NCBI GenBank assembly: GCA_001244265.2
Contig: CDLV01000010.1
Coordinates: forward strand, 1,426,001 to 1,490,000
Length of the DNA stretch: 64,000 nucleotides
Direction: 5' to 3'
DNA from: Microbotryum violaceum
Lineage: Eukaryota
The notes under the pieces are model-generated. The model searched no databases. It was not told the DNA's origin and saw only the letters and a program-made list of their open reading frames with translations. The position numbers were made by a program, and so were the translations under genes. This document shows, in pieces, positions 2,076 to 64,000 of the stretch (the first letter of the stretch is position 1; each line of letters begins with the position of its first letter).

Positions 2076-3098
2076 TTTACACCCCACTCGCCCACTCGTA
2101 CAGATACAATCCTCACACAAAGCACTCCTTTTCTTCCTTGTTGAGTGAATAGTTCGTCCATTTCGAGCACAACAACGCCTGGATGGGGTACCTTCTAGAC
2201 GACGCCAAGCCTGTACGCTCATGTCAACAGCTTAAGCGATGAACCAACTGCAAGTCAAATACAAAGGGGACTGCTCACCCATTGCGCTGCAACAACAAAG
2301 TTTGCCAGAGCCATACCTATCGGATAATGAATCGGATTCAGATGAGGATGAGGACGATTCGAAACTCTCGGCAGCTTTGGTCGCGCTTCCCCCCAAGTCT
2401 TCGACGTCTCGCACCTCCTCAGCCTTGGGGCTTTCGAACTCTCGCAAGAACTGTTCCAGCGACTCCGAAGAGGATTCGGCAAGCCATCATACTACTGAGT
2501 CTAAGAAGACAGTTCAGACGAGGAACTACCTGGCAACATCGTCTCCGCACCACTCCTGGCTCGGAAAGACAAGAAGATTTGGACTGGCATACCTGCGAGC
2601 TCTCTCGGCGGAACGCAGACCGACGAGCTGTTGAACACGACGCGCAAAGCAATTTTCTCAAACATAATCCTCACCACTGCAGAGCACAACGAGCTCCGTC
2701 TCAGGCCGCTCGCTCCTCGTAAGCAGAAATTCGAATGGAAATTTGTAAGCAAACTTCCTGTCCTGGAGCTCCCAAGGTTCATAGCTACAGAGGTGTGTCG
2801 AAGCTGCGTGCTGCGCTGCATTTTGTTTCGTCCTGTGATCGACCTAACTCTTATTGATATCGACAGAAGCATGACTGGGCTCCACGCAAATATGAATGCT
2901 GTCTCGCTGTCGTCGAGCGACCTTACGGTAAGGCGCCCTCGTCTACTCATCATCAACAGCCGTCGGACGTGGCAGTGGGGATCTGATGACGTCCAAAACT
3001 GCCCATCACTCTTCTAGAAGCTTGGAGTCAACCCGCGAAGGTCGACCTGTTGTGGAGATTCTGCGGATGGCCGTCATTGCTCGGGGGCCTGCAAAAGA
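2076..3098 (+). repeat. Dispersed ~1.03 kb repeat R, copy 1 (direct repeat of 52107..53138)
   Basis: Near-identical from TTTACACCCCACTCGCC to GGCCTGCAAAAGA; the ORF-track translations of both copies match almost exactly. Confidence 0.97.
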
Positions 3099-49004: not shown

Positions 49005-50743
49005 ATGCCATCGCCTCGGATCGCTGCGGCCACTACGCACAGTTCAGTGCGACTGTGGTCCGTGCTCGCAGGTGGAGCCGCCCTGAGGTTGGCATTGAGT
49101 ACGACCAGCCTACCCGAAATTCTACAGGACCGGAATGAACTCGTGACGCCCATCACTTCCTTCACGCGGTGTAAGCACTCTCTGCACTGGAGCACGCGTC
49201 GGTCTGACGTCTTCACAGCCCCCCACTTTCGTGTTCCTCAGCTCACGCTTGCCTGCTGCACCTCACAGTACAAGAAGGCTTCTATCTCGTCAACACACTC
49301 AAGCAGGATCCATATTTGGGAGGATCATTCCATCACCCGCCGCTGCTACTGCTGCTATCCCAACTCGTATCCCCCAAGACTCGGCCCCTGTTCGCCCATC
49401 TCGCGTGGACCGCGACCGACCTCGTCACCGCTTACTATCTCGCACGAGTTGCTCAACGAAGAAGCAAAGAAGCTGTTCTCAAGGACGATGAGCAACTGTG
49501 GTCACCGTCTTCTGTCGCGGCTTTGTACGTCATCCTCTCTCTAGCTGAACATAACGTGCCTGGCTCATTCCCCTCCTTCTTCGAGCAAAGGTACTGCCTT
49601 CATCCCTTCTCGATCGCGACCGGCCTTTCACTTTCGACACAAGTATTTTCGCATCATTTCGTCGTCTTGGCCCTCCTCTCCGCCATTCAAGGTACATCAT
49701 TCTCCACCTTGCCCTTCTTTCGTCGGTGCTGACATGAACCTCCTCACACTTGTCAAAACCGCGCAGGCAATGCATACTCTGCCGTCTTTGCCATCTCCAT
49801 CGCATCGCACTTTTCCCTATATCCCGTACTGCTACTCCCTCCACTCGTCGTACTCGCTCATCGTCAAAATCCTCGCTCGACTTCCATAGCCAGAGCTGCA
49901 ATCTTCGCCAGCGCCGCCTTTGTGTCCCATCAAGCAGTCGTGCTGGGCCTCTCGTACTACTTGGCTGGATCCTGGAACTTTTTCTCGAGTGTATATGGTG
50001 TCATGTGAGTCCCTCCCATGATCCCTTAGGCCCAGGAATAGCGCAACAACCGAACTCGCTCTTCCTTTGGTGTGCCCAGCTTGACAATCCCCGATCTCAC
50101 GCCCAACATCGGTATCAGCTGGTACTTCTTCATCGAGATGTTTGATCACTTCCGTGCCTTCTTTGTCGGCGTCTTTCAAATACATGTCCTCATCTATGTC
50201 GCTCCCCTGACATTTGCCTTCCGGTGAGTATCTCCCGCCATGAATCTACTTCGAAGCGGTGCTCATTAGACTGTTTGAGCCCTTATTTGTAGATCGGATC
50301 CGATGTTCGCTTTGGTGCTCATGGTCGGCATCATTGCCTTATTCAAATCCTATACTGCTCTCGGCGACTTTGCGCTCTGGCACGCCGTTCTGGCCCTCTA
50401 CAGCGAGCTCGCATCTCGTAAGCGCCTACGATCGGCCAACTTGTGCACTAGATACTAACGCCTTCCTTTGTGAATCATGACAGATATTACTCGACCCCTG
50501 GTCTATTTTGGTTTAACGCTTTACGCCCTCGCCTTACTCCCTTCTTTCCACCACCTATGGCTCTACTCCGGTTCAGGCAACGCCAATTTCTTCTACGCCT
50601 CGACGCTCGTCTGGGCGATCGGACAAGGTGGCTTGTTGATTGAGGTTTTGGATGCCAAGTTGAAGAGGGAGGTGGTGAATACTTTGGATGAGCAGGGGAG
50701 GGAATTGGTCAAGAAGGGGAGGTGGAGGGTATTGCAGAGGTGA
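49005..50743 (+). CDS. GAB1: GPI transamidase subunit PIG-U / Gab1 (Cdc91)
   Basis: [81 protein letters not shown]. Confidence 0.95.
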
Positions 50744-51432
50744 CATTCGTAGTACTGCGTATAGTGGTCAGGAGGTTATGTAATTGGGAACTAGAGTCAA
50801 CTTGATGCGTCCTAGTGACCAATCGACTGGTAAGGAAGATGAGATACCAAAAGGACGAAAAAGCGTGCCGCTGGGTTCGATACCAAGTAACTGTAACATG
50901 AGGTGGTACGCGGAACAACGCACGACCATCTCTTCCCTAAAGACCAACGGTCTCGAAATAATCAAGTTACCCGAAGGTAACTATGGTCACGCGGCCCTGG
51001 CCCAGGACACGGCTCAAGTAGTTGTCACAATGCTTGGGAAGATCGTGTCGATTGGTCCCTCAGCAGGGATGCCTCCCGTGTAGTAAGAAACGCGAACAGC
51101 AGAATGTTCAAGGGAGCAGCCCGTTAATATACCTTCATGATGTCAACCAACCACCCATTCAGCCTCAGAGATGCGGACATCGAACGGGTGGGCCGACCCG
51201 AACTGTTTTCCAGACAAATCGGCCTCGAACTCGCAACACCCGAAGCGGTCGTCGTGGAGGCTCTGCAACGATTACGGGAAAAATTCTCTCAAGAAATGGC
51301 TCCCGCATGCAGCATAGCTACGGATTCGAGTAAGTAACTTCATGAACTGTGCTCTTGGTGTGGGATTGTTGAGGAGCTAATGGAAAACTATCAAGAGCAC
51401 AGGTCACAGCCACTGTCGCCGTTGGAGAATTA

Positions 51433-51845
51433 CACATGCAAGCGCGAAACTTACGGCTGCCGTAGGGCACAACTTGCCAAAAAAGAAAAGTGTGTCTGCA
51501 ATGACCAAAGTAACGTTGGATCCCTTCTGATTTCAATCAGCATTGATTGAAATTAGCAGCTTTTTTTGCTGTGTGGTCCAGTGTAAGGCCAGCCCCTTCA
51601 CAACTGGACTTCACACAGAGTTCCCTTGCGCCTTAAATGGCTCGCCTCTGATTACGCATCCATTGAAATTGTTCGCTTTTTTGGCTGTGTAGTCCAGCTG
51701 TGAGGGCTAGCAAAAAACCTAACAATTTCAATCGATGCTGATTTAAATCAGAAGGGAGCCAACGTTACTTTGGTCCTTGCAGACACACTTTTCTTTTTTG
51801 GCAAGTTGTGCCCTACGGCAGCCGTAAGTTTCGCGCTTGCATGTG
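51433..51845. mobile_element. Tc1/mariner-type MITE, 413 bp, with 122-bp TIRs and TA target duplication
   Basis: TA|CACATGCAAGCGCGAAAC...GTTTCGCGCTTGCATGTG|TA; arms 51433..51554 and 51724..51845 differ at 4 positions by manual count; no coding capacity. Confidence 0.93.
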
Positions 51846-52106
51846 TATTATAGTCGGAGGACTTCGGACGAGGCAGCAAGCGTAGCATGCAACAAAAATT
51901 GTAGGGTGGAGCAAGCCCTTTTTTTCCTTATGCGCTGTCACTGTAATGTCATTGTCACTGACCATTACATTGACGCCATCACATAAACCACATGGGTGAG
52001 CTCTAGCTCCATAAGGCCTGCAACCATTGGACCCTTGTTAGAAACCGGCAAGCTCACGAATGCCGCTGAAACGAGCTCCCCCTTGAAGCTTCGTACACTC
52101 CTCGTC

Positions 52107-53138
52107 TTTACACCCCACTCGCCCACTCGTACAGATACAATCCTCACACAAAGCACTCCTTTTCTTCCTTGTTGAGTGAATAGTTCGTCCATTTCGAGCA
52201 CAACAACGCCTGGATGGGGTACCTTCTAGACGACGCCAAGCCTGTACGCTCATGTCAACAGCTTAAGCGATGAACCAACTGCAAGTCAAATACAAAGGGG
52301 ACCGCTCACCCATTGCGCTGCAACAACAAAGTTTGCCAGAGCCATACCTATCGGATAATGAATCGGATTCAGATGAGGATGAGGACGATTCGAAACTCTT
52401 GGCAGCTTTGGTCGCGCTTCCCCCAACTCTTCAACGTCTCGCACCTCCTCAGCCTTGGGGCTTTTGAACTCTCGCAAGAACTGTTCCAGCAACTCCGAAG
52501 AGGATTCGGCAAGCCATCATACTACTGAGTCTAAGAAGACAGTTCAGACGAGGAACTACCTGGCAACATCGTCTCCGCACCACTCCTGGCTCGGAAAGAC
52601 AAGAAGATTTGGACTGGCATACCTGCGAGCTCTCTCGGCGGAACGCAGACCAACGAGCTGTTGAACACGACGCGCAAAGCAATTTTCTCAAACATAATCC
52701 TCACCACTGCAGAGCACAACGAGCTCCGTCTCAGGCCGCTCGCTCCTCGTAAGCAGAAATTCGAATGGAAATTTGTAAGCAAACTTCCTGTCCTGGAGCT
52801 CCCAAGGTTCATAGCTACAGAGGTGTGTCGAAGCTGCGTGCTGCGCTGCATTTTGTTTCGTCCTGTGATCGACCTAACTCTTATTGATGAGATATATCGA
52901 CAGAAGCATGACTGGGCTCCACGCAAATATGAATGCTCTCTCGCTGTCGTCGAGCGACTCCCTTACGGTAACGCGCCTTCGTCTACTCATCATCAACATC
53001 CGTCGGACGTGGCAGTGGGGATCTGATGACGTCCAGAATCTCCCATCACTCTTCTAGAAGCTTGGAGTCAACCCGCGAAGGTCAACCTGTTGTGGAGATT
53101 CTGCGGATGGCCGTCGTTGCTCGGGGGCCTGCAAAAGA
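52107..53138 (+). repeat. Dispersed ~1.03 kb repeat R, copy 2
   Basis: Direct repeat of 2076..3098 with scattered substitutions and small indels. Confidence 0.97.
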
Positions 53139-53342
53139 GATCCCGGGCCTGCGCCGCTGAAGCGCGGAGCTTCGCACCCAGACAGCTGACGTCAAATGTT
53201 GGCCCCTGAAATACCTTGCTTTCTAGGAATTGAGCATCTGCGAAGGTTGTCGTCCTCGAGTAAGATCACTCAAGCCTTGATCGATCCCGTAGTAAGTTGT
53301 GCAACTTGTTTGCTGAGTCAGTTTGGCCGGGTTCAAATCTGA

Positions 53343-55587
53343 ATGAGGCCTGCCAACTCGTCCGCTCAACTCCTCCCAGTGGCACCGCAGCGAAGGACCA
53401 AGCCTGCTGCGCCGAGCCTGCCGCCGGTGGTGCCAGTAATATTCGTCAAGATGGCAGCACTCAACACGGCCACAAATTTGGCAACTGCGACGGACCAGAG
53501 GATCAAGGCAGAGGTACAAGGAAGGGTGGAGAGCTGGAAGGCGCTCCAAGCATACCTCGAGGAGGCCGACTCGGTTATTGACCCCCAGGTGGAGGCCATC
53601 CGTTGGCCGACGGAAGTCAAAGGAGCGCACTGGGGCACGGAGAAGGGAATGGGCACCTTTGTGAAACGAATCACCGAGCAGATCAAGGAGGAGGTATGTC
53701 GTAGACTCCTTCATTGGTGGAAACCCAAAGAATGAGTGCTCACAAGTGACCTCCTGACACCCCAGGCGGAGATCGATCGGTGCTTGGTCGTCTGTGGGAG
53801 CTCGAACGCAATCGTCCCCACCTCGGCCGGGCAAGTGCGCTCGAAAGATCACTGTGCCGACGTGGTTCTGCTCTTCCCAGGCGCGTCAACGCCAGGCAAG
53901 GTCCGGTCATGGGAGAGAGTCGACACGGTCTGGGATGCGCTTGCTCTAGCGACCGATTCCACCTTGATCGATGAGCGTAATGTCGACGACGTTCTCGTCT
54001 TTGGCGAAGTCAAGGCCAATCCCGACAAGAAGGTAGAGGTGCGGGACCAGGCCTACCGTAGGTTCTACCGAGCGACGTCCACCAAGCCGATCCGGAAATG
54101 GGTCTTTGCCTTCACGCTTTGCGGCAGCAAGCTGCGGGTTTACATCCACACACCTTCAGGCATCGTCCGTTCGGAGTCCATCGACTGTGCGAGCGAGTCT
54201 GGGCTAGCGTCGCTCAAGCGTCTGATTGTGCGCTTTCTCCGACACGATCTTGACACCCTTGGAGCGATCGCGTACGCCGCATTGTTCCCCTGCGAGTTCA
54301 ACATGGGTCGCCTCCCGCCCCAGGGGTTCCCTCCGGTCCCGCCGATCTCCCGACCGCCGAGCATCAAGCTCTTGTGCCGACAACTCGTCCATCCTGCGAT
54401 GTTTGGGGCACGCTCTTCAGTCTACCGCATCGAACTTGACGAAACAATGAGCGATCTGTGCCGAGCGACCCAACCGACGTTCGTCAGTGATCGTCAACCC
54501 ACCCCGTTGCCTCAGCACACGATGCGAATCGCTAACCCCGATCGAGACGAAATCCAGCGCACCCAGCGGCTCGACGGCCTTGTTCGACTTAGTCGCTCGA
54601 CGCGCCCCGACGACGTCAGGTCCATTGCCATTCGCAAGATTGCCTTCGTCGACATCGACAACTTCTGGACGGTATCCCCTCCGATCGGGCGCAGTGGGGA
54701 CACGAACTTTGTCCCCCGCACACTGCAGTGTGATGTCTTTGAAGACCTGTACCGCACCGTTTTGGAAATCGAATCGACCTCCGCAATGGTCGATTTCAAC
54801 ATTGGAATAGTCGAAGGTGAGTGATTGGATCGTTCGAGCTGGAGGAATGCGCGTCTTGTCCTGAATGCGGAGTCCGATGCGGGTCAACCTAGGACTACGA
54901 TTCTTGTGCGAGCACGGTCTCCTGCCTCGTCAGTTTTCCGATGGCAGTCTCATGATTAATCGAGCCGGACAAGGTGTCCTTGTGGACCTCGACGGGATGG
55001 TGAATCTGGGCAGTGCGTCTGCGGCGTCGGAACTTGCGGAAAGTGCAGTACGTATTCGACTGTCTAGCAGGGCCGGTTCAAGGTGACTGACGACTGCCCG
55101 GCTCTCTACGCAGGGCGTCTTGGCTTTCCTGGCTAAGGGAGGGTATCCGGACGAAGGAGGTCGACAGTCTATCGTAACCCATGCAGTCTGGCACCTTATC
55201 GAGGCTTTGACAAACATCAACCAGTTCGTGGTGTGCAAGCGCCCCGGGAGACCCAGCAGCTCGATGGACATGTCGGTGGAAGCTTGCGAGCTGTGGACCA
55301 AGTGGAATCAAGAAATGTCGCAGATCGCCATCTACTCGAAAAGCTCGCACTACCCTAACTTAGCCGACGCTACCTTCGAGCTCATGTATCTACCTTTCTG
55401 GGCCGATCTTCCAAGCCTTTTCGAGATTATGAGCAGGTATTGCTGCCTCCGAGGACCCGCTGGCCGTACTACATCCGTGCGCCTACGCGAGCAAGACCTT
55501 GGGATGCGGCGCCAATGGGGACCTGGCGGCAACTGCAGCCTCGACCGACTGTCTGCCGAGCTGAAACGTTTCAAGGCTCGTCTTTAG
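53343..55587 (+). CDS. FunK1-family pseudokinase, multi-exon
   Basis: ADVVLL...DVLVFGEVK...PIRKWVFAFTLCGSKLRVYIHTPSGIVRSESID (FunK1 N-region); MFGARSSVY; the catalytic loop reads LCEHGLLPRQFSDGSLMINRAGQGVLVDLDG (HRD->PRQ, N->S); WHLIEA replaces HDLES. Introns ~53694-53765, ~54817-54892, ~55049-55113. Confidence 0.8.
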
Positions 55588-56419
55588 GGTGTTTGTCGTT
55601 TTTGAAGGTTCTGAAGGCTCTGCCTTGTATGATTTGGTCCAAGGCACAGGGTAAGCTTTGTTGGCAATTCGACCTCTGGTCGCTCACTGAGCCCCACGGA
55701 CGTTGTCCAGAGGTCAGATCTTGATGAAGGATGGCTGTCAAAGGTGCTCTTCAGTCATGATGAATACTTGACGCAACGTCTTGACGGTTGATCGCAGTGA
55801 CTGATCTTCGGAACTTAATTCCACTTTCCGAAAGCACATGGGGCGAGGAGGAACGGGGCGAACAAGGTCACCAAAGGGCTTCGTCCGCTTCAGAGCCCCC
55901 GAGCAGCGCCTCTGTTGCGCGGCGCCCATACCTTCTGCCCACAGGAGCCCTCACCTTAATCCTGAACTTTCCCAGCCTGTGCGGGTCACGATGTAGAATG
56001 ACACGTAGAGGGTCTGGCAAGGATTCTATGAGCTGATTGCAACAGTCGTCTTCCACTCCACAGTAGCCGTGCGGAGTCTCACAACAACAACAAAAAGGAC
56101 TCCTCCACCAGACCAGATGTGATCGGAAAGACGGTCGGCTTTCTCCCAAGGGGCTCGAAACGCGACCGAAAAACTCGTTCTGTTCGAGGAGAGCGTGGGT
56201 AAAAGCTTACGGGTGGCCAGAGAAACGGGCATTTTCGTGTGGGTCGTCTCTCGTCTCCGAGCTTCCCGGGGCTCCCCTCTCGCAGCGCAGGGGCTCCCGC
56301 AAGGGCGCCCGCAGGAGATGAAGGGCGAGCTGCCAGCGGCTGAGGCGGCTCATGCGAATGGTCCTCGGCACACAGGTATCTCTGCCAACAAGCACTGCAA
56401 TTTCATTCCAACGCTTACA

Positions 56420-58733
56420 CTACAAAAACAGCACCCGTCCTGCTCTATCCCTGGGGACTCTAGGCGGTTCACTCTCCGGCGCGTTCCTCTGCCCGATGCT
56501 CACGAGCAACGCTAACAAGTCCGAGGCCAACTGGCCGTGCGTGAATTCGCCGCTTGCCCAACGAGGTTCGAGGATGGCGGCTTCGTCGACCTGCGCAGCC
56601 CACGGAGTGCGCGGCACACCTAGGCCGCAGTACTTGGCGACCGTCTGGACGAGCGTAGCCAGATCCTCCTTCCAGAACTCCTTGAAGGGCTCGAACAACT
56701 CTTGCGGTCCCCAAGGCGCTAGGACGAGCATCGTCTTCGAGTCGACGGCGCCCCATTTCGAATTCAACATCTGCCAGATGCCTCTGGTCTTGTCCGAAAG
56801 CTCGCTCGAGTCGTCGGGCCCATTAGGCTGTATGAATACGGTAAACATCGTCACGTAGACGAGTGATTCGATATCATGCCATGGCTGATGAAGAAACGTT
56901 GGTCGCATTTTGTACTCCTCCACCAGCTCCCGCGCGCGATATGCAAGCGTCCCCTGGCGTTGTCCGTCCCTCGGGAATCATCAGCAACGGTAGAGTACGG
57001 CGGACTTGGTAGAGGCACCCTTGATCAATCTGGGAAAGATACTCACAACATTTTTATTGCGTTCGGCTTCCCCCTCTGGCCCGTCCATGAACACCGCAGT
57101 GTCGTAGTCGACCAACACCCCGTTGCCGTCGGATGCGACCATGACGTTCGAAGCGGAAACGTCCCGATGAAGGATGCGTAGGCGGTAAAGACTGCCTAGG
57201 CCTGCAGTGGATAGATGCCACCATGATCAGCCAAGAGCGCGAGGAAAGCATATCACAGAAAGTAATTGAGCGCCCATACCTTGAACGGCCCCCAGAATAA
57301 CGCGTGCCAACGCTTCGGCCGAATCGACGACGCAGATTGGTTCGAAGCAGTGTTCATGGAACGTCACCTCCATCGCGCGCGGCTTGAGACCCCGCGCTCT
57401 GAAGGGGAGATCCGCAGGGAGGAAGTGGGGGACGACGACAAAGTCACTCTCGCGATACACGTCAACGATGTTGGTGAGCCCTTGTCGATCCTCGGGTAAC
57501 GCGTTGGTGATGGCGAGACAGATGCGATCGTGTTCGTCGCAGCGAGCTTCTTCGACGAACGAGACCGTCATCGCGTACTCGGTGTGCGCAGTCGAACTTT
57601 CGCCGCCGACGGAAACGCGATAGGCCGAGGTGTGTCGTCCAAAGATGGAATCGGACTTGGAGAGTGTTTCGAGGATTCTGATGTCTTCGAGACGAGGGGA
57701 GCCCGAGAGACGCTTCTCAAACAGCGGAACCCGAGATGGAAGCTCGCACGACGGGAACGAGAATGAGGTCGAACCGACACGGTCACGCAGTGAGGAGATG
57801 ATGCCGAGCTCGCGATCGCTCAGGCTGAGCAGTCTCGCCAGAAAGGTTGCAAGGTCACCATTCGCTTCGGTACAGTAGATTGTGGGGCTGCAAAAACGAC
57901 CACTTGGAGTATGGAGGACGATCTCGAGAAGGTTGTCACAGAGGCCGAACCCGAACGCGTGAGATCGGAGCGATTGCGAGACGAGCTCGAACAGGGATTC
58001 TCGTAGGCGCTCAGGGCCGGACACGATATCCGAGTCGGAGTCGGATGGATCGACATTCGATGTCCTGCTAATTTCGGCAACGGCAGCAACTTGTGACCAC
58101 GACCGCGTATCATCGTAGGCGTCCTCGTCGTCCGATGTCCAGGTAGCTACCAGACTTGGGTCGGCCTCGAATGCTTCGCGAGTTAGGAGGACAACGTCCG
58201 GGATAATCTAAGGATCATGAACGTCGACGCTTTTGTTGTCTTCTTGGAAGCTCAGCAAGCGACCTCGACTCTTCTGTTCACTCGGTGGTCAAACTCAGCT
58301 CGGGCACGTTCACCAGAGACCGATGGTCATCATGTGCCCTGCGCGCACTCACCAACGTTGGCTTTCCGTCTTCCCACACGATCTCTGGGACCACGGTTGT
58401 GTCAATGTCGTCGGTCAACGGCGCGAGGAAAAAGTGCGCCAATCCCGCCCATTCGATCTCGCGGTCTCCGTCATTGCTCTCGCCAGGTGAAGAGCCCAGA
58501 GACCTGAGCCTAGTCACGCGACTGACACGACGAACGGGGGGTGGCTTGGTGTCGCTTCGAGCCGAGGTCCGACGCTGCTTTGGGCGCTGACGTTGCTTCT
58601 TGGTCGGACCCATGCGACTGAAACTTGTCGTCCCGTTGCAGTGGAGGCGGGGACCAAGTGGCCGACCCGGCGGTGGATGCGCGCGGGGGCGAGTCGAACT
58701 TGAACGACGGTCGCCGGGTTGAGCGTGGGACAT
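56420..58733 (-). CDS. FunK1-family protein kinase with intact catalytic motifs, multi-exon (start uncertain, 58613-58877)
   Basis: IIPDVVLL...RSWSQVAAVAEI; RSHAFGFGLC...LHTPSG; IFGRHTSAY; LYRLRILHRDVSASNVMVASDGNGVLVDYDTA; GTLAYRARELV; LHQPWHDIESLVYV. Confidence 0.85.
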
Positions 58734-58929
58734 TATGAGTACGAGGGGAAGGCGAAGCGAACTGTTGAATGCTGTACACGGCGCAAAGAGCTCGTCAACG
58801 TTCGAAGTTCGAGACATGGCAATTGGAACTTGCCGCGACGGCGGGTGGACGTGACTCACATGAGCGTACTCTGACAAACTGGATTGGTCTACGTGAGCAG
58901 AATTAGGAGGGCTACACGCTGATCACGGA

Positions 58930-60331
58930 TGTCGGTGGTGACTATGTTGTGTGCAGCGACGAAGCGACGACTCAGGCAAGAGGCCAAGCCGCGTCAAGGC
59001 GTGCCTGTCGAGCGCTGTCGAGCGGACCGGATCGATGGTCTCCGCTGATGTCCGAGAATGCTTCTCCAACGCGAGTCAGCTTGAGCACCTCGTCACTGCG
59101 CGCGCCAGAACCTACAAGATCGTGTACAAGCTAACTCATTTCGGATATCCCAAAGCTCAACAAGAACTTACGCACGGAAACACCCTCATCTTCAGCCAGA
59201 GCACCGCTTCGTTCACCGATGTATACGTACTGCCCATGTCAGTCGAGGAACTCGCTGACAGTGTTTGCATTTTATTCTGCGGAGGGAGCCCCAACCTTGC
59301 GGAGTTGGACAAGTGTCGACCCATGATCGTGAAGCAGAGTCGTATCCAAAAGATGTTCAGGTTTTTGATCAACGAAAGCAAGAATTCGGCGTAATCTGCC
59401 GTCTCCTTTGATGGCGATTGCACAGCTCGTTCGACGCAGTTCCGGTGCGCTCAACCCGACCTCTCCAGCTTCTACTGCGGTTTCAGCTTCCACTTCGACT
59501 TCGGCTTCCGTCTGGGTTGATCCCCAAGTATCGGATCGACAAATAGCGGATGGAGACTGTCTCGTGCCCGACGTAGTTTTGGCGAATGTGGTGACCGCAG
59601 AGACAGTGGAACCAACATCATCGCTCTTTGACTTGAAGGCTACGCAACAACGCATAACGACTCTGATGAACCAGTAGTCGAACACGCCCATGTGCCGCCA
59701 CCCCCTACCGACGAACCAATTCACTCATGGCTGCTCTTTGAGAAAGCTCTTCGTTATCTCAACCGGGACAAGCCACCTATGCCATTCCGACATGCGACGC
59801 CCCGTTGTGGGAACCTTCGGACGAGCTCGTGCTCTCAAAGCTGTGGCCACACCTCGATCCATTTGGTCTCGTCGGCTTCTGTGTCGAGCGCAACCTCAAG
59901 ATTTCTCTGGACGAGCAAATCGACCATTTGCTCAATCTATACGACGGTGATTTCGATCCGACTCGTCTTTCCCATTCATCGTCTCGAACATGCTCCGCCG
60001 CGGACGAGAAGTGTTTCGCCAACTCGCTTCTCGGGTCCCCAAAGAGAAGGTGGATCGAATCGGAGCAGCACTGCTCGAAATCGACATGGATTTTGTGCCC
60101 GAAATGGTCCAAAAAACCAAGGACATGAAAAGGTACAAGGCAAAAACAGAAGCAGAGAAGCAAATCAACCGTATTCTGGCGGAATTGCAAGGTTTCGGAG
60201 ACAAACTTCACGGCACAACTGCGCAGATGCTCGACATGAGGAATGAGATTCGCGGATGCGTCAACGCGTTCGGTATGTACACCCTCTTCGTCACCGTCAA
60301 CCCGGCAGATTTACACTTACCGGTGCGATGA
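58930..60331 (+). mobile_element. Degraded Helitron Rep region (DUF6570-like + Helitron_like_N), broken by stops, frameshifts and deletions
   Basis: LEHLVTARARTYKIVYKL...GNTLIFSQ...VLPMSVEELADSVCILFCG...RPMIVKQSRIQKMFRFL; LWPHLDPFGLVGF...ISLDEQIDHLLNLYD; LHGTTAQMLDMRNEIRGCVNAFGMYTLFVTVNPADLH, the usual order in basidiomycete Helitron Rep proteins. Confidence 0.85.
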
Positions 60332-61102
60332 CGAGGTATCTCACAGCCTCGGGCGCATCAAGGACAATTCTCTCGACCAAGCAGATACCGTTTAGGCCAA
60401 CGACGAAAAGGCATCTAATCGTGGGTTGCAACGTGAGGGAGGAGGATTATCGGGGAGCTGTGAATGATCGAAGGCCCGGAGCAGCACTCGCCATCCAGCG
60501 AGAACATGGTCTCTGCTGCCCTGATGGCAAGTGAGACGAGTGATGAACCACGCCATGGTGCATGGTACAAGCCAAGGTCGCAGCACAAGAGCTCCACGCC
60601 GAGGCGCGTCGCCTCATCCGACTACTTGGAAGCTTGGAGAGGGTACATGCCCTGGACGTAGATGCATACCCGAGCTTGCAGAAATGGGATAGGCTACACT
60701 CGCGTAGGCTAAGAAGATGACGTCGAACGATGTACAGCAAGCCGAAGGGGGGAACGAGACGAGCTGCCGCGGTCGATCGGCGGGCGCGCCGAGTAGGTGG
60801 AAAGGCGAGTGCGGGGTGAATCACTCTCGAGTCGTCCCAGACGATCAAGTCGCACATCCGAAAAAGCGGGGCGAGCTGTCTTTGTTTCGGAACATCGATA
60901 ATAACAGATAGTAGATGACTGTACGGCCTATTGTGACTTACGAGAAGCCTCAAAGTGATCTTCTCTGTGCTAAATCCTCAAGTGGTGACATGATTCGAAT
61001 CAGATTACAACGCAAGAACAAAAGACGGGATTGAACGGAGCGCATGAACTTCCACCAAGATAGCATAAGATAGCAATATAAGAAAGTAGCCTTTTTGCCT
61101 CC

Positions 61103-63617
61103 TCAAATCGACCCCTCGCGACTCTGTTCGGCGCTCGAGCTCGACTCGTCCAATTTCCCCTTGGCGCTATCCGAATCAGGCGTCGTTGTGAGCTTCCCCG
61201 ACTCGATCAATACGGGTTTCTCATCAGTCTTGGTGTCGACCTTGTTGCTCGTCGTGCCGTCTCGCCCATGTAAAATTCCCTTGAAGATGGAAAGCAACGT
61301 ATGACGTCCCTCAACGAGAGGGAATAAAACGACTGCGAAAAAAGCAAAGAACCCCCACAAGAGTGCGACGACGACCCAACCGAAGAAGAACTTTTTGCTG
61401 AAGATGTAACCATTGCCGTACATTGAAAGGGGCCAGACGATGAAGAGAGCGAGGAAGAGGAAGAGCGTGATGCTGCGAGCCCAAAGCGCGGCTCGGCGAA
61501 GCTTCTCAGGGTTGTAGGAGGGGTCTTCGAAAGAGACGTCGATTTGGTCGCCGTTTTGGGTGAGAACTCGGACGGCGGCGAGGGAGGCCCAGTCGCTAAT
61601 GAGGAGAGAGAGAAGAGCACGTCAGCGCGGCTGTCCACTCCCATAGGAGTTGAGAGCGGGCCTTGAGGCTGGACTCACTAGTTTGCGGGGAACGCAAGTG
61701 AAAGTACAATGGTGACGAGCGCTGATGATCCGATACCAACAATGCAACCGTACATGCAAGGGTCCAATTTACCAACCGAACCGACCGTGACCTCGCCCGA
61801 GAACTTGTGCGCTAGTGACAACCAAGCGATGACACCAGCGGCGAAACCGACCCAGATCGAAGATCCGGCTGCGACTTTGCCCTGCCTTGAGGAGAAGAAG
61901 GTCAAGACTAGTGGGGGGAGAGCAGGCCCTGTGAAAATTCCGGTCATGTTGTAAATGAAGCCGAGATCAATCCCGGCGCCGTGGAGCATCGAGCCGAAGC
62001 CGGCCATCCAAAGTGAGAAACCGACGACGGCCCAGTGGGAAGCTTTGAGCAGGGCACGATCGTTGGCAGTGGGTCGGACGTAGGTTTTGAAGACGTCGTA
62101 GGAGATGACGGTCGAGACGCCGATCAGTTGAGCAGAGATGGCGGACGTGCACGACATGAACTGCGGATGGGGACCGAGCTGTTAGGAACGTGTCCGATAG
62201 TTCGGACAAGTGCTCAGGCGTGGATTGACCATCAGGAGCAAGACGGCAGCGGCTCCACCGGTACCCATAATGGTTTGAGCGGCACTGTGAAAAGAGGCCC
62301 GACTTTAATCAGCAACGAGATTGCAAGGATACGTGTCGTGGGTCAAACTCACTAGGGCAAGACAAGACCGGCACCAATTTCGCTAGCGTTCATGCGACGA
62401 GGGAAAGTCGGAAAGCTGGGCGTGTGCTCCAAGGCGACGGCGACCAAACCCGCGGTCGTTGCAAGGGTAAACGGCATGGCGTACCACGAAAGACCACCGA
62501 GGACGTAGCCCGGAATCGCGGCTTCAGGAGCTGCGGCGATGCCCTTCTGATGAAACGAGTTGTCGAGGAACACGACACCGGTATATTCGAGAATCGACAA
62601 GATGGCGAATTTGAGCGCACCCAGGGAGCGGACTGTGAGATAGGAGTGATCAAGCGTTGGCGCTTCGCGGTTGCGGTTTTGAGCCTCAATGAGAAGGTCG
62701 TACATGCGGTCCGGGGAGCCCACTTGACTGCTCGTCGTATAGGCGACAAACCAAAATATGAGCAGGATGATGAGGATGATCGAGGTATGGGCATAGTCGG
62801 TCAAGATTGTGGCGCGGAGGCCCCCGCGAAGAGTGTAGGCGGCGACGGAGAGCGGGAACAGCCATAGGGCGGCGTAGATTGACATTCCGGTGAGCGAGTT
62901 GACCGCAGCAGCACCTCCAAGGAGCACAGAGGAGACGACGAGCTACATGAGCATAGCAACAAAAGGGTTAGCGCATAGTCACGAGATTCGTCGTCGAGTA
63001 TTATAAGGTACCTACGGTGTTTGCGGCCAAAGAGAAGAACATGAAGGACAGGTGAACAAAGGTGCCGTACCGTACTCGCATGATTTCGAGAAAGGTGTGT
63101 GCGTTAGGAGCTTTTCGCTTCGTTTGGATGGCCAGGTTTGAGAACACCATGATTTGGGTCGAGTTGCCTGTGAGATGACGGACAATATCGGGAGGTCAGA
63201 GGCTGAAGCGTGACAATGTCGGAACAGCAGACTCACAAGCAGCATAGAAAAAGGCACCCGCGACACCATATTGATATGCGACAGTGCAACTCGAAAGCAA
63301 TGTGGTCGACCAAGTCCAACTCGAGATGACACCGGCGGCGGTCAAACCGGTGCCGATCGAGCGTTTGGCGACCGTGAATTCCTCGTTGTCATCGGTGTTA
63401 CCTCGACGGGACAGCAAGTCCGAGATGCCGACCATGCCGATGGCGAAGAGTGCACCAAGACCAACGACGAAGCCATAGCTGTGTGATAGATTGAGACAAA
63501 ACGTGCGCAGGGGTTGAAATGATCGGGATAGTTCGGTCAGCAGGAAGAATTGGTGCCCTCTAGCGCATGCCGAACTCACCCGGCGCCTTGAGAAAGAGGA
63601 GGCACGATCTCGCTCAT
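61103..63617 (-). CDS. DUR3: Urea/polyamine active transporter (sodium:solute symporter family)
   Basis: MSEIVPPLSQGAG|YGFVVGLGALFA...EEFTVAKRSIGTGLTAAGVISSWTWSTTLL...YQYGVAGAFFYAA; GGLRATILTDYAHT; GYVLGGLSWYAMPF; WPLSMYGNGYIFSKKFFFGWV. Confidence 0.96.
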
Positions 63618-64000
63618 GATAATTTTTTGGAGCCTATAGATCAGAGAGTACCAAGAGGGAGAAGTAAGTCGGTGGAGTTGCTGCTGACTGCTGTGTGGCT
63701 CCTGGTAGCAGGTGCCCACGATCGCACCACCGCGCGCAAGCGCCCAAGGCGCCGATCGAACTGGAAAATGAGCTCCTTGTTTCTGTCGACGATTGCGAAA
63801 ACGGGCGATCGCCTGCAGTGCGCGCCGCCGCTCGGCCGATCTGCCTCCTATCGAACGACTTTGAAAAGCGACGAAATATTTTGGTTGGAGTACCCGATAT
63901 CAAATCGAAGCTTTCATCTTCCTTTCCCACTGCTTAATACTACTGTTCGTACGTCTTCCCTATCTGGCATCCAAGGTTCCGTCTTCAAGCTCGTCATTCG

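What the first reader, a model, noticed from the sequence alone, without database searches (positions are those of the whole stretch)
52107..60331. Convergent FunK1 pseudokinase + active FunK1 kinase pair abutting a Helitron Rep relic: candidate transposon-borne kinase/pseudokinase module
Seen: two divergent FunK1-type genes lie tail-to-tail ~830 bp apart. One keeps HRDVSxxN/DYD/HDIES; the other has PRQFSDGS and WHLIEA. Both appear open once spliced, while the adjacent Helitron Rep is broken by stops and frameshifts. Known: FunK1 kinases are expanded in basidiomycetes, their function is unknown, and Helitrons capture genes. Inference: an active/dead pair preserved inside decayed TE DNA resembles executor/regulator (toxin-antidote, non-self recognition or drive) architectures and may be spread by Helitrons.
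Basis: partly seen in the sequence, partly recalled or inferred. Interest (0 to 1): 0.8.

Follow-up and report, generated by a model that had tools for sequence, protein, structure and literature searches.

The report
Split nuclease-kinase gene pair in smut
In an anther-smut fungus, a two-part gene (DNA-cutting part plus kinase part) seems to have split into two neighbours, one keeping only the cutter's active-site residues and the other only the kinase's, which looks like a poison and its antidote and suggests a testable job for a large fungal kinase family of unknown function.

Summary
Both genes start with a restriction-endonuclease-like (PD-(D/E)xK) domain. Gene A keeps D149/E198/K200 and has a dead kinase loop; gene B keeps HRD/N/DxD and has lost the nuclease lysine. 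Across 57 modelled proteins: A class 14/14 nuclease triad, 0/14 kinase triad; B class 0/25 and 24/25; unpaired relatives 15/18 and 18/18. A and B subtrees mirror each other over four neighbour pairs; two of them recur in Microbotryum saponariae by locus tags. This matches the separation-of-function mutants of the Spok spore killer, so the likeliest roles are reversed: A poison, B antidote (about 0.5; untested). Caveats: B lacks the beta-3 lysine, so 'active' is unproven; the window's B carries a private TAG; the window's A shows relaxed selection. The Helitron piece is the middle of a young 3.1-kb repeat without termini, present in 2 of 5 cassettes; FunK1 genes cluster at contig ends instead. 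Helitron debris is commoner near A/B loci than near unpaired genes (8/18 vs 1/16), so a role is not excluded. The scan had no earlier FunK1 note.

The parts
51867..53142 (+). Truncated copy of a dispersed repeat with long terminal inverted repeats (non-coding relic); joins the cassette 200 bp upstream of A's first ATG and replaces A's upstream exon and promoter
   Evidence: 11 other copies at 87-97%; inverted arms of 140 and 96 nt in copy L084; junction at 53142/53146; no Pfam hit for its ORFs
53146..59037 (.). A+B cassette, the part shared with copies on C4, C5 and C20
   Evidence: C5 90%, C4 95-97%, two C20 copies 87-88%; C4 and C5 share a further ~4.3 kb upstream of A
53343..55587 (+). Gene A: nuclease-motif-intact, kinase-dead FunK1-type gene. 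Exons 53343-53693, 53766-54816, 54893-55047, 55114-55587 (676 aa; 640 aa from ATG 53451)
   Evidence: Open spliced frame; public proteins P0001 (676 aa, 6 differences) and P0041 (640 aa, identical); intron 55048-55113 joined in runs X2 and X4
53625..54284 (+). PD-(D/E)xK restriction-endonuclease-like domain of A (aa ~95-290): E100 (53640), D149 (53859), E198 (54006), K200 (54012), Q212 (54048)
   Evidence: Model of aa 118-288, pLDDT 87; all 9 chains with Z>=5 are restriction-endonuclease-fold, best Z 7.2, rmsd 3.7 over 111 residues; motif counts
54925..54948 (+). Degenerate catalytic loop of A (PRQFSDGS in place of HRDxSxxN)
   Evidence: Sequence; 0 of 14 A-class rows keep the Asp/Asn/Asp triad; kinase fold of the C-terminal part
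55588..56419 (.). 832-bp spacer between the two stop codons
56420..58733 (-). Gene B: kinase-loop-intact, nuclease-dead FunK1-type gene. Exons 58733-58353, 58273-57280, 57201-57047, 56953-56420
   Evidence: Spliced models; all three introns joined in contigs of related copies; PF17667 44 and 31 bits
57146..57169 (-). Catalytic loop HRDVSASN of B
58208..58210 (-). TAG private to the window's B: premature stop at the usual acceptor, or a new in-frame acceptor
   Evidence: TCG in C4, C5, C20 and C13 copies; sense base in 4 of 4 laid runs
59038..60433 (+). Internal 1.4-kb piece of a 3.1-kb non-autonomous Helitron-derived element (DUF6570 and Helitron_like_N fragments), no termini, 305 bp upstream of B and pointing away from it
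   Evidence: 17 near-complete matches at 88-92% among 39 of 287 candidates scored; element extends ~1.2 kb left and ~0.5 kb right in other copies; family termini absent from the window

Best explanation
An ancestral FunK1-type gene encoded a PD-(D/E)xK nuclease fused to a kinase-fold domain (the unpaired D/E-type genes here and Phenoliferia P0034 still have both motifs). It duplicated and the copies lost opposite active sites: A kept the nuclease, B kept the kinase catalytic loop. The two have stayed neighbours and diversified together (shown). Most likely A is an intracellular nucleic-acid-damaging poison and B neutralises it in trans, by modifying or binding A or its target: a two-gene version of the Spok killer/resistance protein (inferred by analogy; no activity shown). 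The cassette spreads mainly by segmental, largely subtelomeric duplication with gene conversion (inferred from positions and mosaic identity). The window copy is a displaced, TE-trimmed and probably weakening copy.
For: Reciprocal motif loss: A 14/14 nuclease triad and 0/14 kinase triad, B 0/25 and 24/25, unpaired 15/18 and 18/18 (57 of 71 rows, near-identical copies included). Nuclease fold. Each class is one side of a branch (SH-aLRT 89, 100, 98) and the subtrees mirror: (A3,(A2,(A1b,A1))) and (B3,(B2,(B1b,B1))), matching physical neighbours. 8 of 8 near-full-length A-class genes have a B-class gene within 6.4 kb centre to centre; broken A relics lie next to B at C6, C10 and C13. M. saponariae: A g06562 with B g06560, A g03168 with B g03174. 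In 3 of 4 A-A comparisons the nuclease core is the best-conserved part (61, 35, 34%; tied with the C-lobe in the fourth); in the 4 deeper B-B comparisons the kinase N-lobe is. dN/dS 0.37 [0.28-0.50] for A (window vs C5) and 0.33 [0.22-0.48] for B. Spok: K240A loses killing and keeps resistance, D667A is toxic; kinase counters nuclease in cis and trans (PMC6660238, passages); REase+kinase couples with the REase as toxic part (PMC5289972, passages).
Against: No activity, toxicity or rescue is shown. In 2 of 3 distinct A1/B1 cassettes it is B that looks damaged while A is open: TAG in the window, three 1-nt deletions in G runs in C4 (the latter may be assembly errors). That needs rescue in trans or by alternative splicing. 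B has no beta-3 lysine. A of the window against C4 gives dN/dS 1.32 [0.83-2.42], and the window's A has 5 derived replacements against 0 in its orthologue P0001. The A3/B3 pair carries one stop in each gene and the A1b gene is a wreck in this genome. Physical linkage alone also gives mirrored trees, and only four pairs are independent. Best fold Z is 7.2, under the tool's mark of 8. The gene identical to A is expressed most in starved haploid cells, least in teliospore-forming tissue, which does not point to meiosis (germinating teliospores were not sampled). No sequence homology to Spok was tested.
Confidence: 0.5

Rival explanations
1. Complementary halves of one regulated enzyme with a host role: B switches A's nuclease on (or recruits it) for defence, non-self recognition or cell death, and A alone is inert.
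For: Same reciprocal motifs and pairing; A's dead kinase (dN/dS 0.31) and B's dead nuclease (0.36-0.52) are both constrained, as expected for interaction surfaces; the two C-lobes plus spacer differ as one block between C5 and C8/C4 (80-91% against 96-99% at the ends); open A beside a damaged B is tolerated in the window.
Against: In Spok and CRN8 the nuclease part kills without the kinase. The block could be simple gene-conversion geometry. Many B genes have no A beside them (7 of 19).
Confidence: 0.25
2. Passive subfunctionalisation or slow decay of a repeat-like gene family: the classes arose once, travel together only because they are linked in duplicated subtelomeric blocks, and have no toxin-antidote relation today.
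For: Many copies are broken; 25 of 43 genes lie within 50 kb of a contig end against 4.8% of the sequence; recent A comparisons are near neutral.
Against: dN/dS near 0.3 over the longer comparisons for both genes; open orthologues of all three A1 copies in M. silenes-dioicae (P0001, P0040, P0043); pairing kept across branches longer than 1 change per site and across different orientations.
Confidence: 0.15
3. One reading: B is the executing kinase, A a pseudokinase regulator or antidote, and the pair is Helitron cargo.
For: B keeps HRD/N/DxD in 24 of 25 rows; A's kinase fold is constrained; Helitron remnants lie upstream of B, pointing away from it, in three of four A/B lineages, and in 8 of 18 A/B stretches against 1 of 16 D/E stretches (Fisher p 0.019, stretches not independent).
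Against: It leaves A's invariant nuclease motif and B's loss of it unexplained. B often stands without A, never the reverse for near-full-length genes. The remnants come from at least two Helitron families and are 87-93% identical to dispersed copies, far younger than the A/B lineages. No termini bracket the cassette; C1 and C2 hold 70 of 142 listed Helitron places and no FunK1 gene.
Confidence: 0.1

Closest known systems
Spok spore killers of Podospora and Fusarium FuSpoks (PMC6660238, PMC9972908, bioRxiv 10.1101/2025.02.05.636631; passages read)
   Same: PD-(D/E)xK nuclease followed by a kinase-fold domain; HsdR of Vibrio vulnificus was SPOK3's best HHpred hit and is among the fold hits here (3h1t, Z 5.4); multicopy, TE-rich surroundings, vegetative expression. 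A resembles the kinase-dead toxic mutant, B the nuclease-dead resistant mutant.
   Different: Spok does both jobs in one protein; here two genes with opposite losses. No Spok cysteine cluster in 0 of 71 rows; Pfam family is PF17667; basidiomycete host; homology to Spok and drive in crosses untested.
Crinkler/RHS-type (CR) proteins with REase + kinase C-termini (Zhang et al. 2016, not held; seen only as summarised in PMC5289972, passages)
   Same: REase coupled to a kinase, the REase thought to be the toxic part and the kinase its regulator.
   Different: No LFLAK/ubiquitin-like header seen; the public gene identical to A is listed without signal peptide; split, reciprocally inactivated neighbours are not mentioned in the passages read.
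FunK1 / Pkinase_fungal (PF17667)
   Same: Both genes score over the Pfam cut-off; feature search puts both domains with PF17667 clusters; family expanded (47 genes listed here).
   Different: Beta-3 lysine absent in the whole Microbotryum/Phenoliferia group but present in the distant homologue P0046; three motif classes with paired reciprocal losses.
Kinase/pseudokinase pairs such as Toxoplasma ROP18/ROP5 (recalled; ROP5 structures appear among kinase hits)
   Same: A catalytically dead kinase fold kept under selection beside a related kinase.
   Different: Here the pseudokinase carries an intact nuclease motif; not secreted.

Membership tests
FunK1 / Pkinase_fungal (PF17667) | Profile match above the curated cut-off (24.1 bits) | tested here: met
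   A exon 2: 39 bits; B exons: 44.2 and 30.7 bits
FunK1 / Pkinase_fungal (PF17667) | HDLES-like motif (motif recalled) | tested here: met
   B has HDIES; A has HLIEA, degenerate
Catalytically competent protein kinase | Catalytic-loop Asp, Asn and Mg-binding Asp | tested here: met
   B only: 24 of 25 B rows; 0 of 14 A rows
Catalytically competent protein kinase | Beta-3 (VAIK) lysine | tested here: not met
   0 of 57 rows; Thr in all 25 B rows, Arg in the window's A; position set by alignment with P0046
Catalytically competent protein kinase | Phosphotransfer activity | not testable with these tools
   Needs an assay
PD-(D/E)xK nuclease superfamily | Alpha-beta-beta-beta-alpha-beta restriction-endonuclease core | tested here: met
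   Moderate: 9 of 9 chains at Z>=5 are of this fold (TT1808 and DrdV assigned from recall), best Z 7.2, first unrelated row 4.8; Foldseek gave nothing at E<=0.001
PD-(D/E)xK nuclease superfamily | Asp and Glu-x-Lys on adjacent core strands | tested here: met
   A: D149 at the start of strand 150-153, E198/K200 on strand 193-200. B: Lys lost in 25 of 25 rows
PD-(D/E)xK nuclease superfamily | Nuclease activity | not testable with these tools
   Needs an assay
Spok | Killing and resistance in one protein | tested here: not met
   Neither window gene keeps both motif sets; the unpaired D/E genes do
Spok | C-x3-C-x13-C-x5-H-x7-H cluster | tested here: not met
   0 of 71 rows
Spok | Sequence homology to SPOK proteins | not tested
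   No SPOK sequence was fetched
Spok | Killing of non-carrier spores in crosses | not testable with these tools
   Needs crosses
Helitron-captured cargo | Cargo bracketed by the element's 5' and 3' termini | tested here: not met
   Neither end of the 3.1-kb family found in window 50-62 kb or in the C4, C5, C20, C13 cassette stretches; ends of other Helitron families not searched
Helitron-captured cargo | Cargo present in sister copies of the element | tested here: not met
   0 of 8 fetched copies (of 17 listed) have FunK1 in their 10-kb stretch; 2 of 5 cassettes carry the piece

The most novel reading that the evidence does not exclude
FunK1 proteins are nuclease-plus-regulator conflict proteins, and in Microbotryum one lineage has split into a two-gene poison (nuclease, kinase-dead) and antidote (kinase-fold, nuclease-dead, lysine-less and perhaps using unusual chemistry), with co-evolving specificity types: a Spok-like killer or addiction element in a basidiomycete that could stabilise subtelomeric segments or distort segregation.
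Probability: 0.35. Interest if true: 0.9.

Novelty: new variant of a known kind. Interest (0 to 1): 0.74.

Why it matters
FunK1 kinases are a large fungal family without a known function. This locus offers a natural separation-of-function experiment: one gene with only the nuclease motif, its partner with only the kinase loop, kept together across four subfamilies and in sister species. A simple yeast toxicity and rescue matrix would test whether the family works as nuclease poison plus antidote, and might show how the kinase domain of Spok-like proteins confers resistance, which the papers read call unresolved. I found no description of such split pairs in the searches; Zhang et al. 2016, the paper most likely to mention them, could not be read.

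Tried and rejected
Complex prediction of M. saponariae A (95-708) with the B kinase part (318-684): no verdict, score 0.00, alignments not used; not evidence either way. Foldseek on the nuclease model: no match at E<=0.001; on the full model only kinases were listed. Metagenome scan with the B alignment: 188 pattern matches, none confirmed, so pairing outside Microbotryum is untested. Profile search for distant homologues returned 4 proteins among 8000 scored candidates. No run was on record as RNA; of four 'RNA?' runs laid, X1 showed no spliced joint, and contig depth was not used to rank genes. The idea that the left repeat (51867-53142) is the 5' part of the same Helitron was dropped: it is a separate element with its own inverted ends, and 1 of 8 fetched Helitron-element copies had it nearby. 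Distance test FunK1 to Helitron_like_N: 7 of 47 within 10 kb against 2.3 (same contigs, p 0.002) or 3.8 (genome, p 0.08) expected, but the 7 come from two independent junctions and the Helitron list is a lower bound (150 of 298 candidates scored). The careful tree did not finish; the quick tree (40 of 71 rows, fragments and near-duplicates dropped) is reported. Zhang et al. 2016 was not held. B genes MVLG_03933 and MVLG_04486 are not in the differential-expression table, which says nothing on their level.
Full report
SETTING. The window is G000:C8:1426001-1490000 of a 33-Mb, 20-contig fungal assembly. All close named relatives are Microbotryum (anther smut) proteins. P0041, P0042 and P0019 are letter-identical to the window, C4 and C5 copies of gene A, so they are not independent evidence; the M. 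silenes-dioicae and M. saponariae proteins are.

OBSERVATION. Gene A (+, 53343-55587, four exons) splices to an open 676-aa frame with PRQFSDGS and WHLIEA; public P0001 has the same length and 6 differences. Gene B (-, 58733-56420) has HRDVSASN, DYD and HDIES. The stops are 832 bp apart. Both match PF17667 over the cut-off; the Helitron piece matches DUF6570 and Helitron_like_N in different frames. Three corrections. First, the window's B has TAG at 58208-58210 where the C4, C5, C20 and C13 copies have TCG; spliced contigs of related copies use the upstream acceptor (58274-58352) and all four laid runs read the sense base. B is therefore truncated at codon 149 unless the TAG is used as a new acceptor, which would remove 22 codons of the dead nuclease domain and leave the kinase part whole (not shown). 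Second, the beta-3 lysine is Thr in 25 of 25 B rows and absent from all 57 rows counted, while the distant homologue P0046 has it: B has an intact catalytic loop, but activity is unproven. Third, 51867-53142 is a separate truncated repeat that removes the upstream exon present in C4, C5 and P0040/P0002.

THE MISSED DOMAIN. A model of A residues 118-288 (pLDDT 87) aligned to 48,161 solved chains gave 9 hits at Z>=5, all restriction-endonuclease-fold: TT1808 (7.2, rmsd 3.7, 111 residues), BpuSI, Cfr10I, a putative REase domain, DUF820, Bse634I, DrdV, SgrAI and HsdR. The best Z is under the tool's mark of 8 and Foldseek found nothing at E<=0.001, so the fold call is moderate; it is backed by D149 and E198-x-K200 lying on adjacent core strands. 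The C-terminal part of the full model matches protein kinases.

RECIPROCAL LOSS. I modelled 49 FunK1 copies of the genome by spliced alignment and aligned them with 22 public proteins. Fourteen of the 71 rows were fragments or outliers and were left out. Of the rest, class A has the nuclease triad in 14 of 14 and the kinase triad in 0 of 14; class B 0 of 25 and 24 of 25; the D/E types with Phenoliferia P0034 15 of 18 and 18 of 18. These counts include near-identical copies, and the classes were first recognised by their motifs; the independent check is the tree. On 40 rows (quick IQ-TREE, SH-aLRT only, long branches flagged) each class is one side of a branch (89, 100, 98), and the A and B subtrees mirror each other: (A3,(A2,(A1b,A1))) and (B3,(B2,(B1b,B1))). 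The matching tips are neighbours: A1/B1 convergent (window, C4, C5, C20 twice), A1b relic/B1b convergent (C6), A2/B2 in tandem (C13), A3/B3 in tandem (C17). All 8 near-full-length A genes have a B within 6.4 kb; 7 of 19 B genes have neither A nor an A relic seen beside them; one of 19 D/E genes lies within 6.4 kb of an A. In M. saponariae the locus tags put A g06562 by B g06560 and A g03168 near B g03174; orientation there is unknown. Conservation follows the same split: the nuclease core is the best-kept part of A in three of four comparisons and the kinase N-lobe in the four deeper B comparisons.

SELECTION AND EXPRESSION. Nei-Gojobori dN/dS: A window vs C5 0.37 [0.28-0.50], its dead C-lobe 0.31 [0.21-0.47]; B 0.31-0.36 in all six comparisons, its dead nuclease 0.36-0.52 in the three deeper ones. 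Against this, A window vs C4 gives 1.32 [0.83-2.42], the nuclease domains are too alike to judge, and the window's A has five derived replacements where its orthologue P0001 has none. All three A1 copies have open orthologues in M. silenes-dioicae. Spliced joints for A (55048-55113 in X2 and X4; 53292-53379 in X2) and for all three B introns appear in runs guessed to be RNA, from related copies. In a published table (PMC4469406, supplement file 15 row and main-text passages) MVLG_03934, identical to A, reads 27.98 in starved haploid cells, 5.68 on rich medium and 3.58 in late infection (FDR 2.7e-6), without signal peptide; cross-mapping from paralogs cannot be excluded.

HELITRON. The piece at 59038-60433 is the middle of a 3.1-kb element with 17 near-complete matches at 88-92%. 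None of 8 fetched copies has FunK1 nearby, neither terminus of the family is near any cassette, and only C8 and C4 share the junction; C5 and C20 have another repeat there. FunK1 genes sit at contig ends (25 of 43 within 50 kb, 4.8% expected) and none is on C1 or C2, which hold 70 of 142 listed Helitron places. It comes from at least two families and is 87-93% identical to dispersed copies, so it is younger than the pairs; repeated insertion into TE-rich regions explains it, occasional Helitron-aided moves are not excluded. The genome is Helitron-rich, as an earlier scan note (e1-7146065) also found. How the window copy reached its place 258 kb from the contig end, between two host genes, is unexplained.

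MECHANISM. Shown: two-domain architecture, reciprocal loss, pairing, co-divergence, past constraint, transcription. Inferred: function. In SPOK3, K240A abolishes killing and keeps resistance, D667A is toxic, and the kinase counters the nuclease in cis and trans (PMC6660238, passages); killing involves DNA damage in E. coli and yeast (PMC9972908, passages). REase+kinase couples are known among Crinkler-type proteins with the REase as toxic part (PMC5289972, passages). A and B are natural look-alikes of those two mutants, so I favour A as poison and B as antidote (0.5).

NOVELTY. The architecture is of a known kind; this is not a Spok family member by the features tested (two genes, no cysteine cluster). 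A split with opposite inactivations was not found in the searches (listings seen), nor in this scan's earlier notes. Zhang et al. 2016 and its supplements could not be read and may already note inactive REase or kinase versions. Verdict: new variant of a known kind, interest 0.74.

Noticed in passing
window 51431-51847: MITE-like element: 136-nt inverted arms, 94% complementary, 145 nt apart; the arms also match L058 and L059 at 93%.
   Followed up: partly
window 49208-50743 (+) and 61103-63633 (-): Host genes flanking the island: a PIG-U-like GPI transamidase subunit and a urea/solute transporter-like gene (read from ORFs; PIG-U also named beside the matching public gene).
   Followed up: no
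window 2076-3098: Second copy (97%) of the repeat that truncates gene A.
   Followed up: no
G000:C20 (44 kb contig), L033 and L034: Both cassettes are 98.6-99.7% identical to C5 and one has many 1-nt indels near the contig end; C20 may be redundant or low-quality assembly.
   Followed up: partly
L031 against window 54900-57300: The two kinase C-lobes and the spacer are far more diverged between C5 and C8/C4 (80-91%) than the cassette ends (96-99%): a possible specificity haplotype or conversion boundary.
   Followed up: partly
L082 1400-4700: About 4.3 kb upstream of A is co-duplicated in C4 and C5 and partly kept on C13 at 73-89%; it holds ORF pieces that may be a third, unidentified gene.
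   Followed up: no
D- and E-type genes, e.g. L047 5430-7577: Unpaired genes keep both motif sets; their Mg-binding motif reads DYN or DYH, and most lie within 50 kb of contig ends. They are the closest single-gene Spok analogues here.
   Followed up: partly
P0011 (M. saponariae): Gene model fusing a B2 start, a PIF1 fragment and an A2 start; probably a mis-joined B2, Helitron relic and A2 neighbourhood like C13 here.
   Followed up: partly
upstream of B copies (window 59017-59040): Homology among B copies ends about 300 bp upstream of the start, and different repeats abut that point in different copies (Helitron piece in C8/C4, another 1.1-kb repeat in C5/C20).
   Followed up: partly
run X2, contig 9 laid on window 54891-56769: A spliced contig runs from A's last exons through the spacer, skips 395 bp and ends inside B's last exon: a deletion allele or overlapping convergent transcripts in a related organism.
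   Followed up: no
L040, L046, L036, L053: Several FunK1 copies form inverted duplications (B2-B2, E-E, and A-like fragments), suggesting fold-back events.
   Followed up: no
P0037 and L065: Relatives outside the B clade that have also lost part of the nuclease motif while keeping the kinase loop, without a known A neighbour; left out of the counts as fragments.
   Followed up: no
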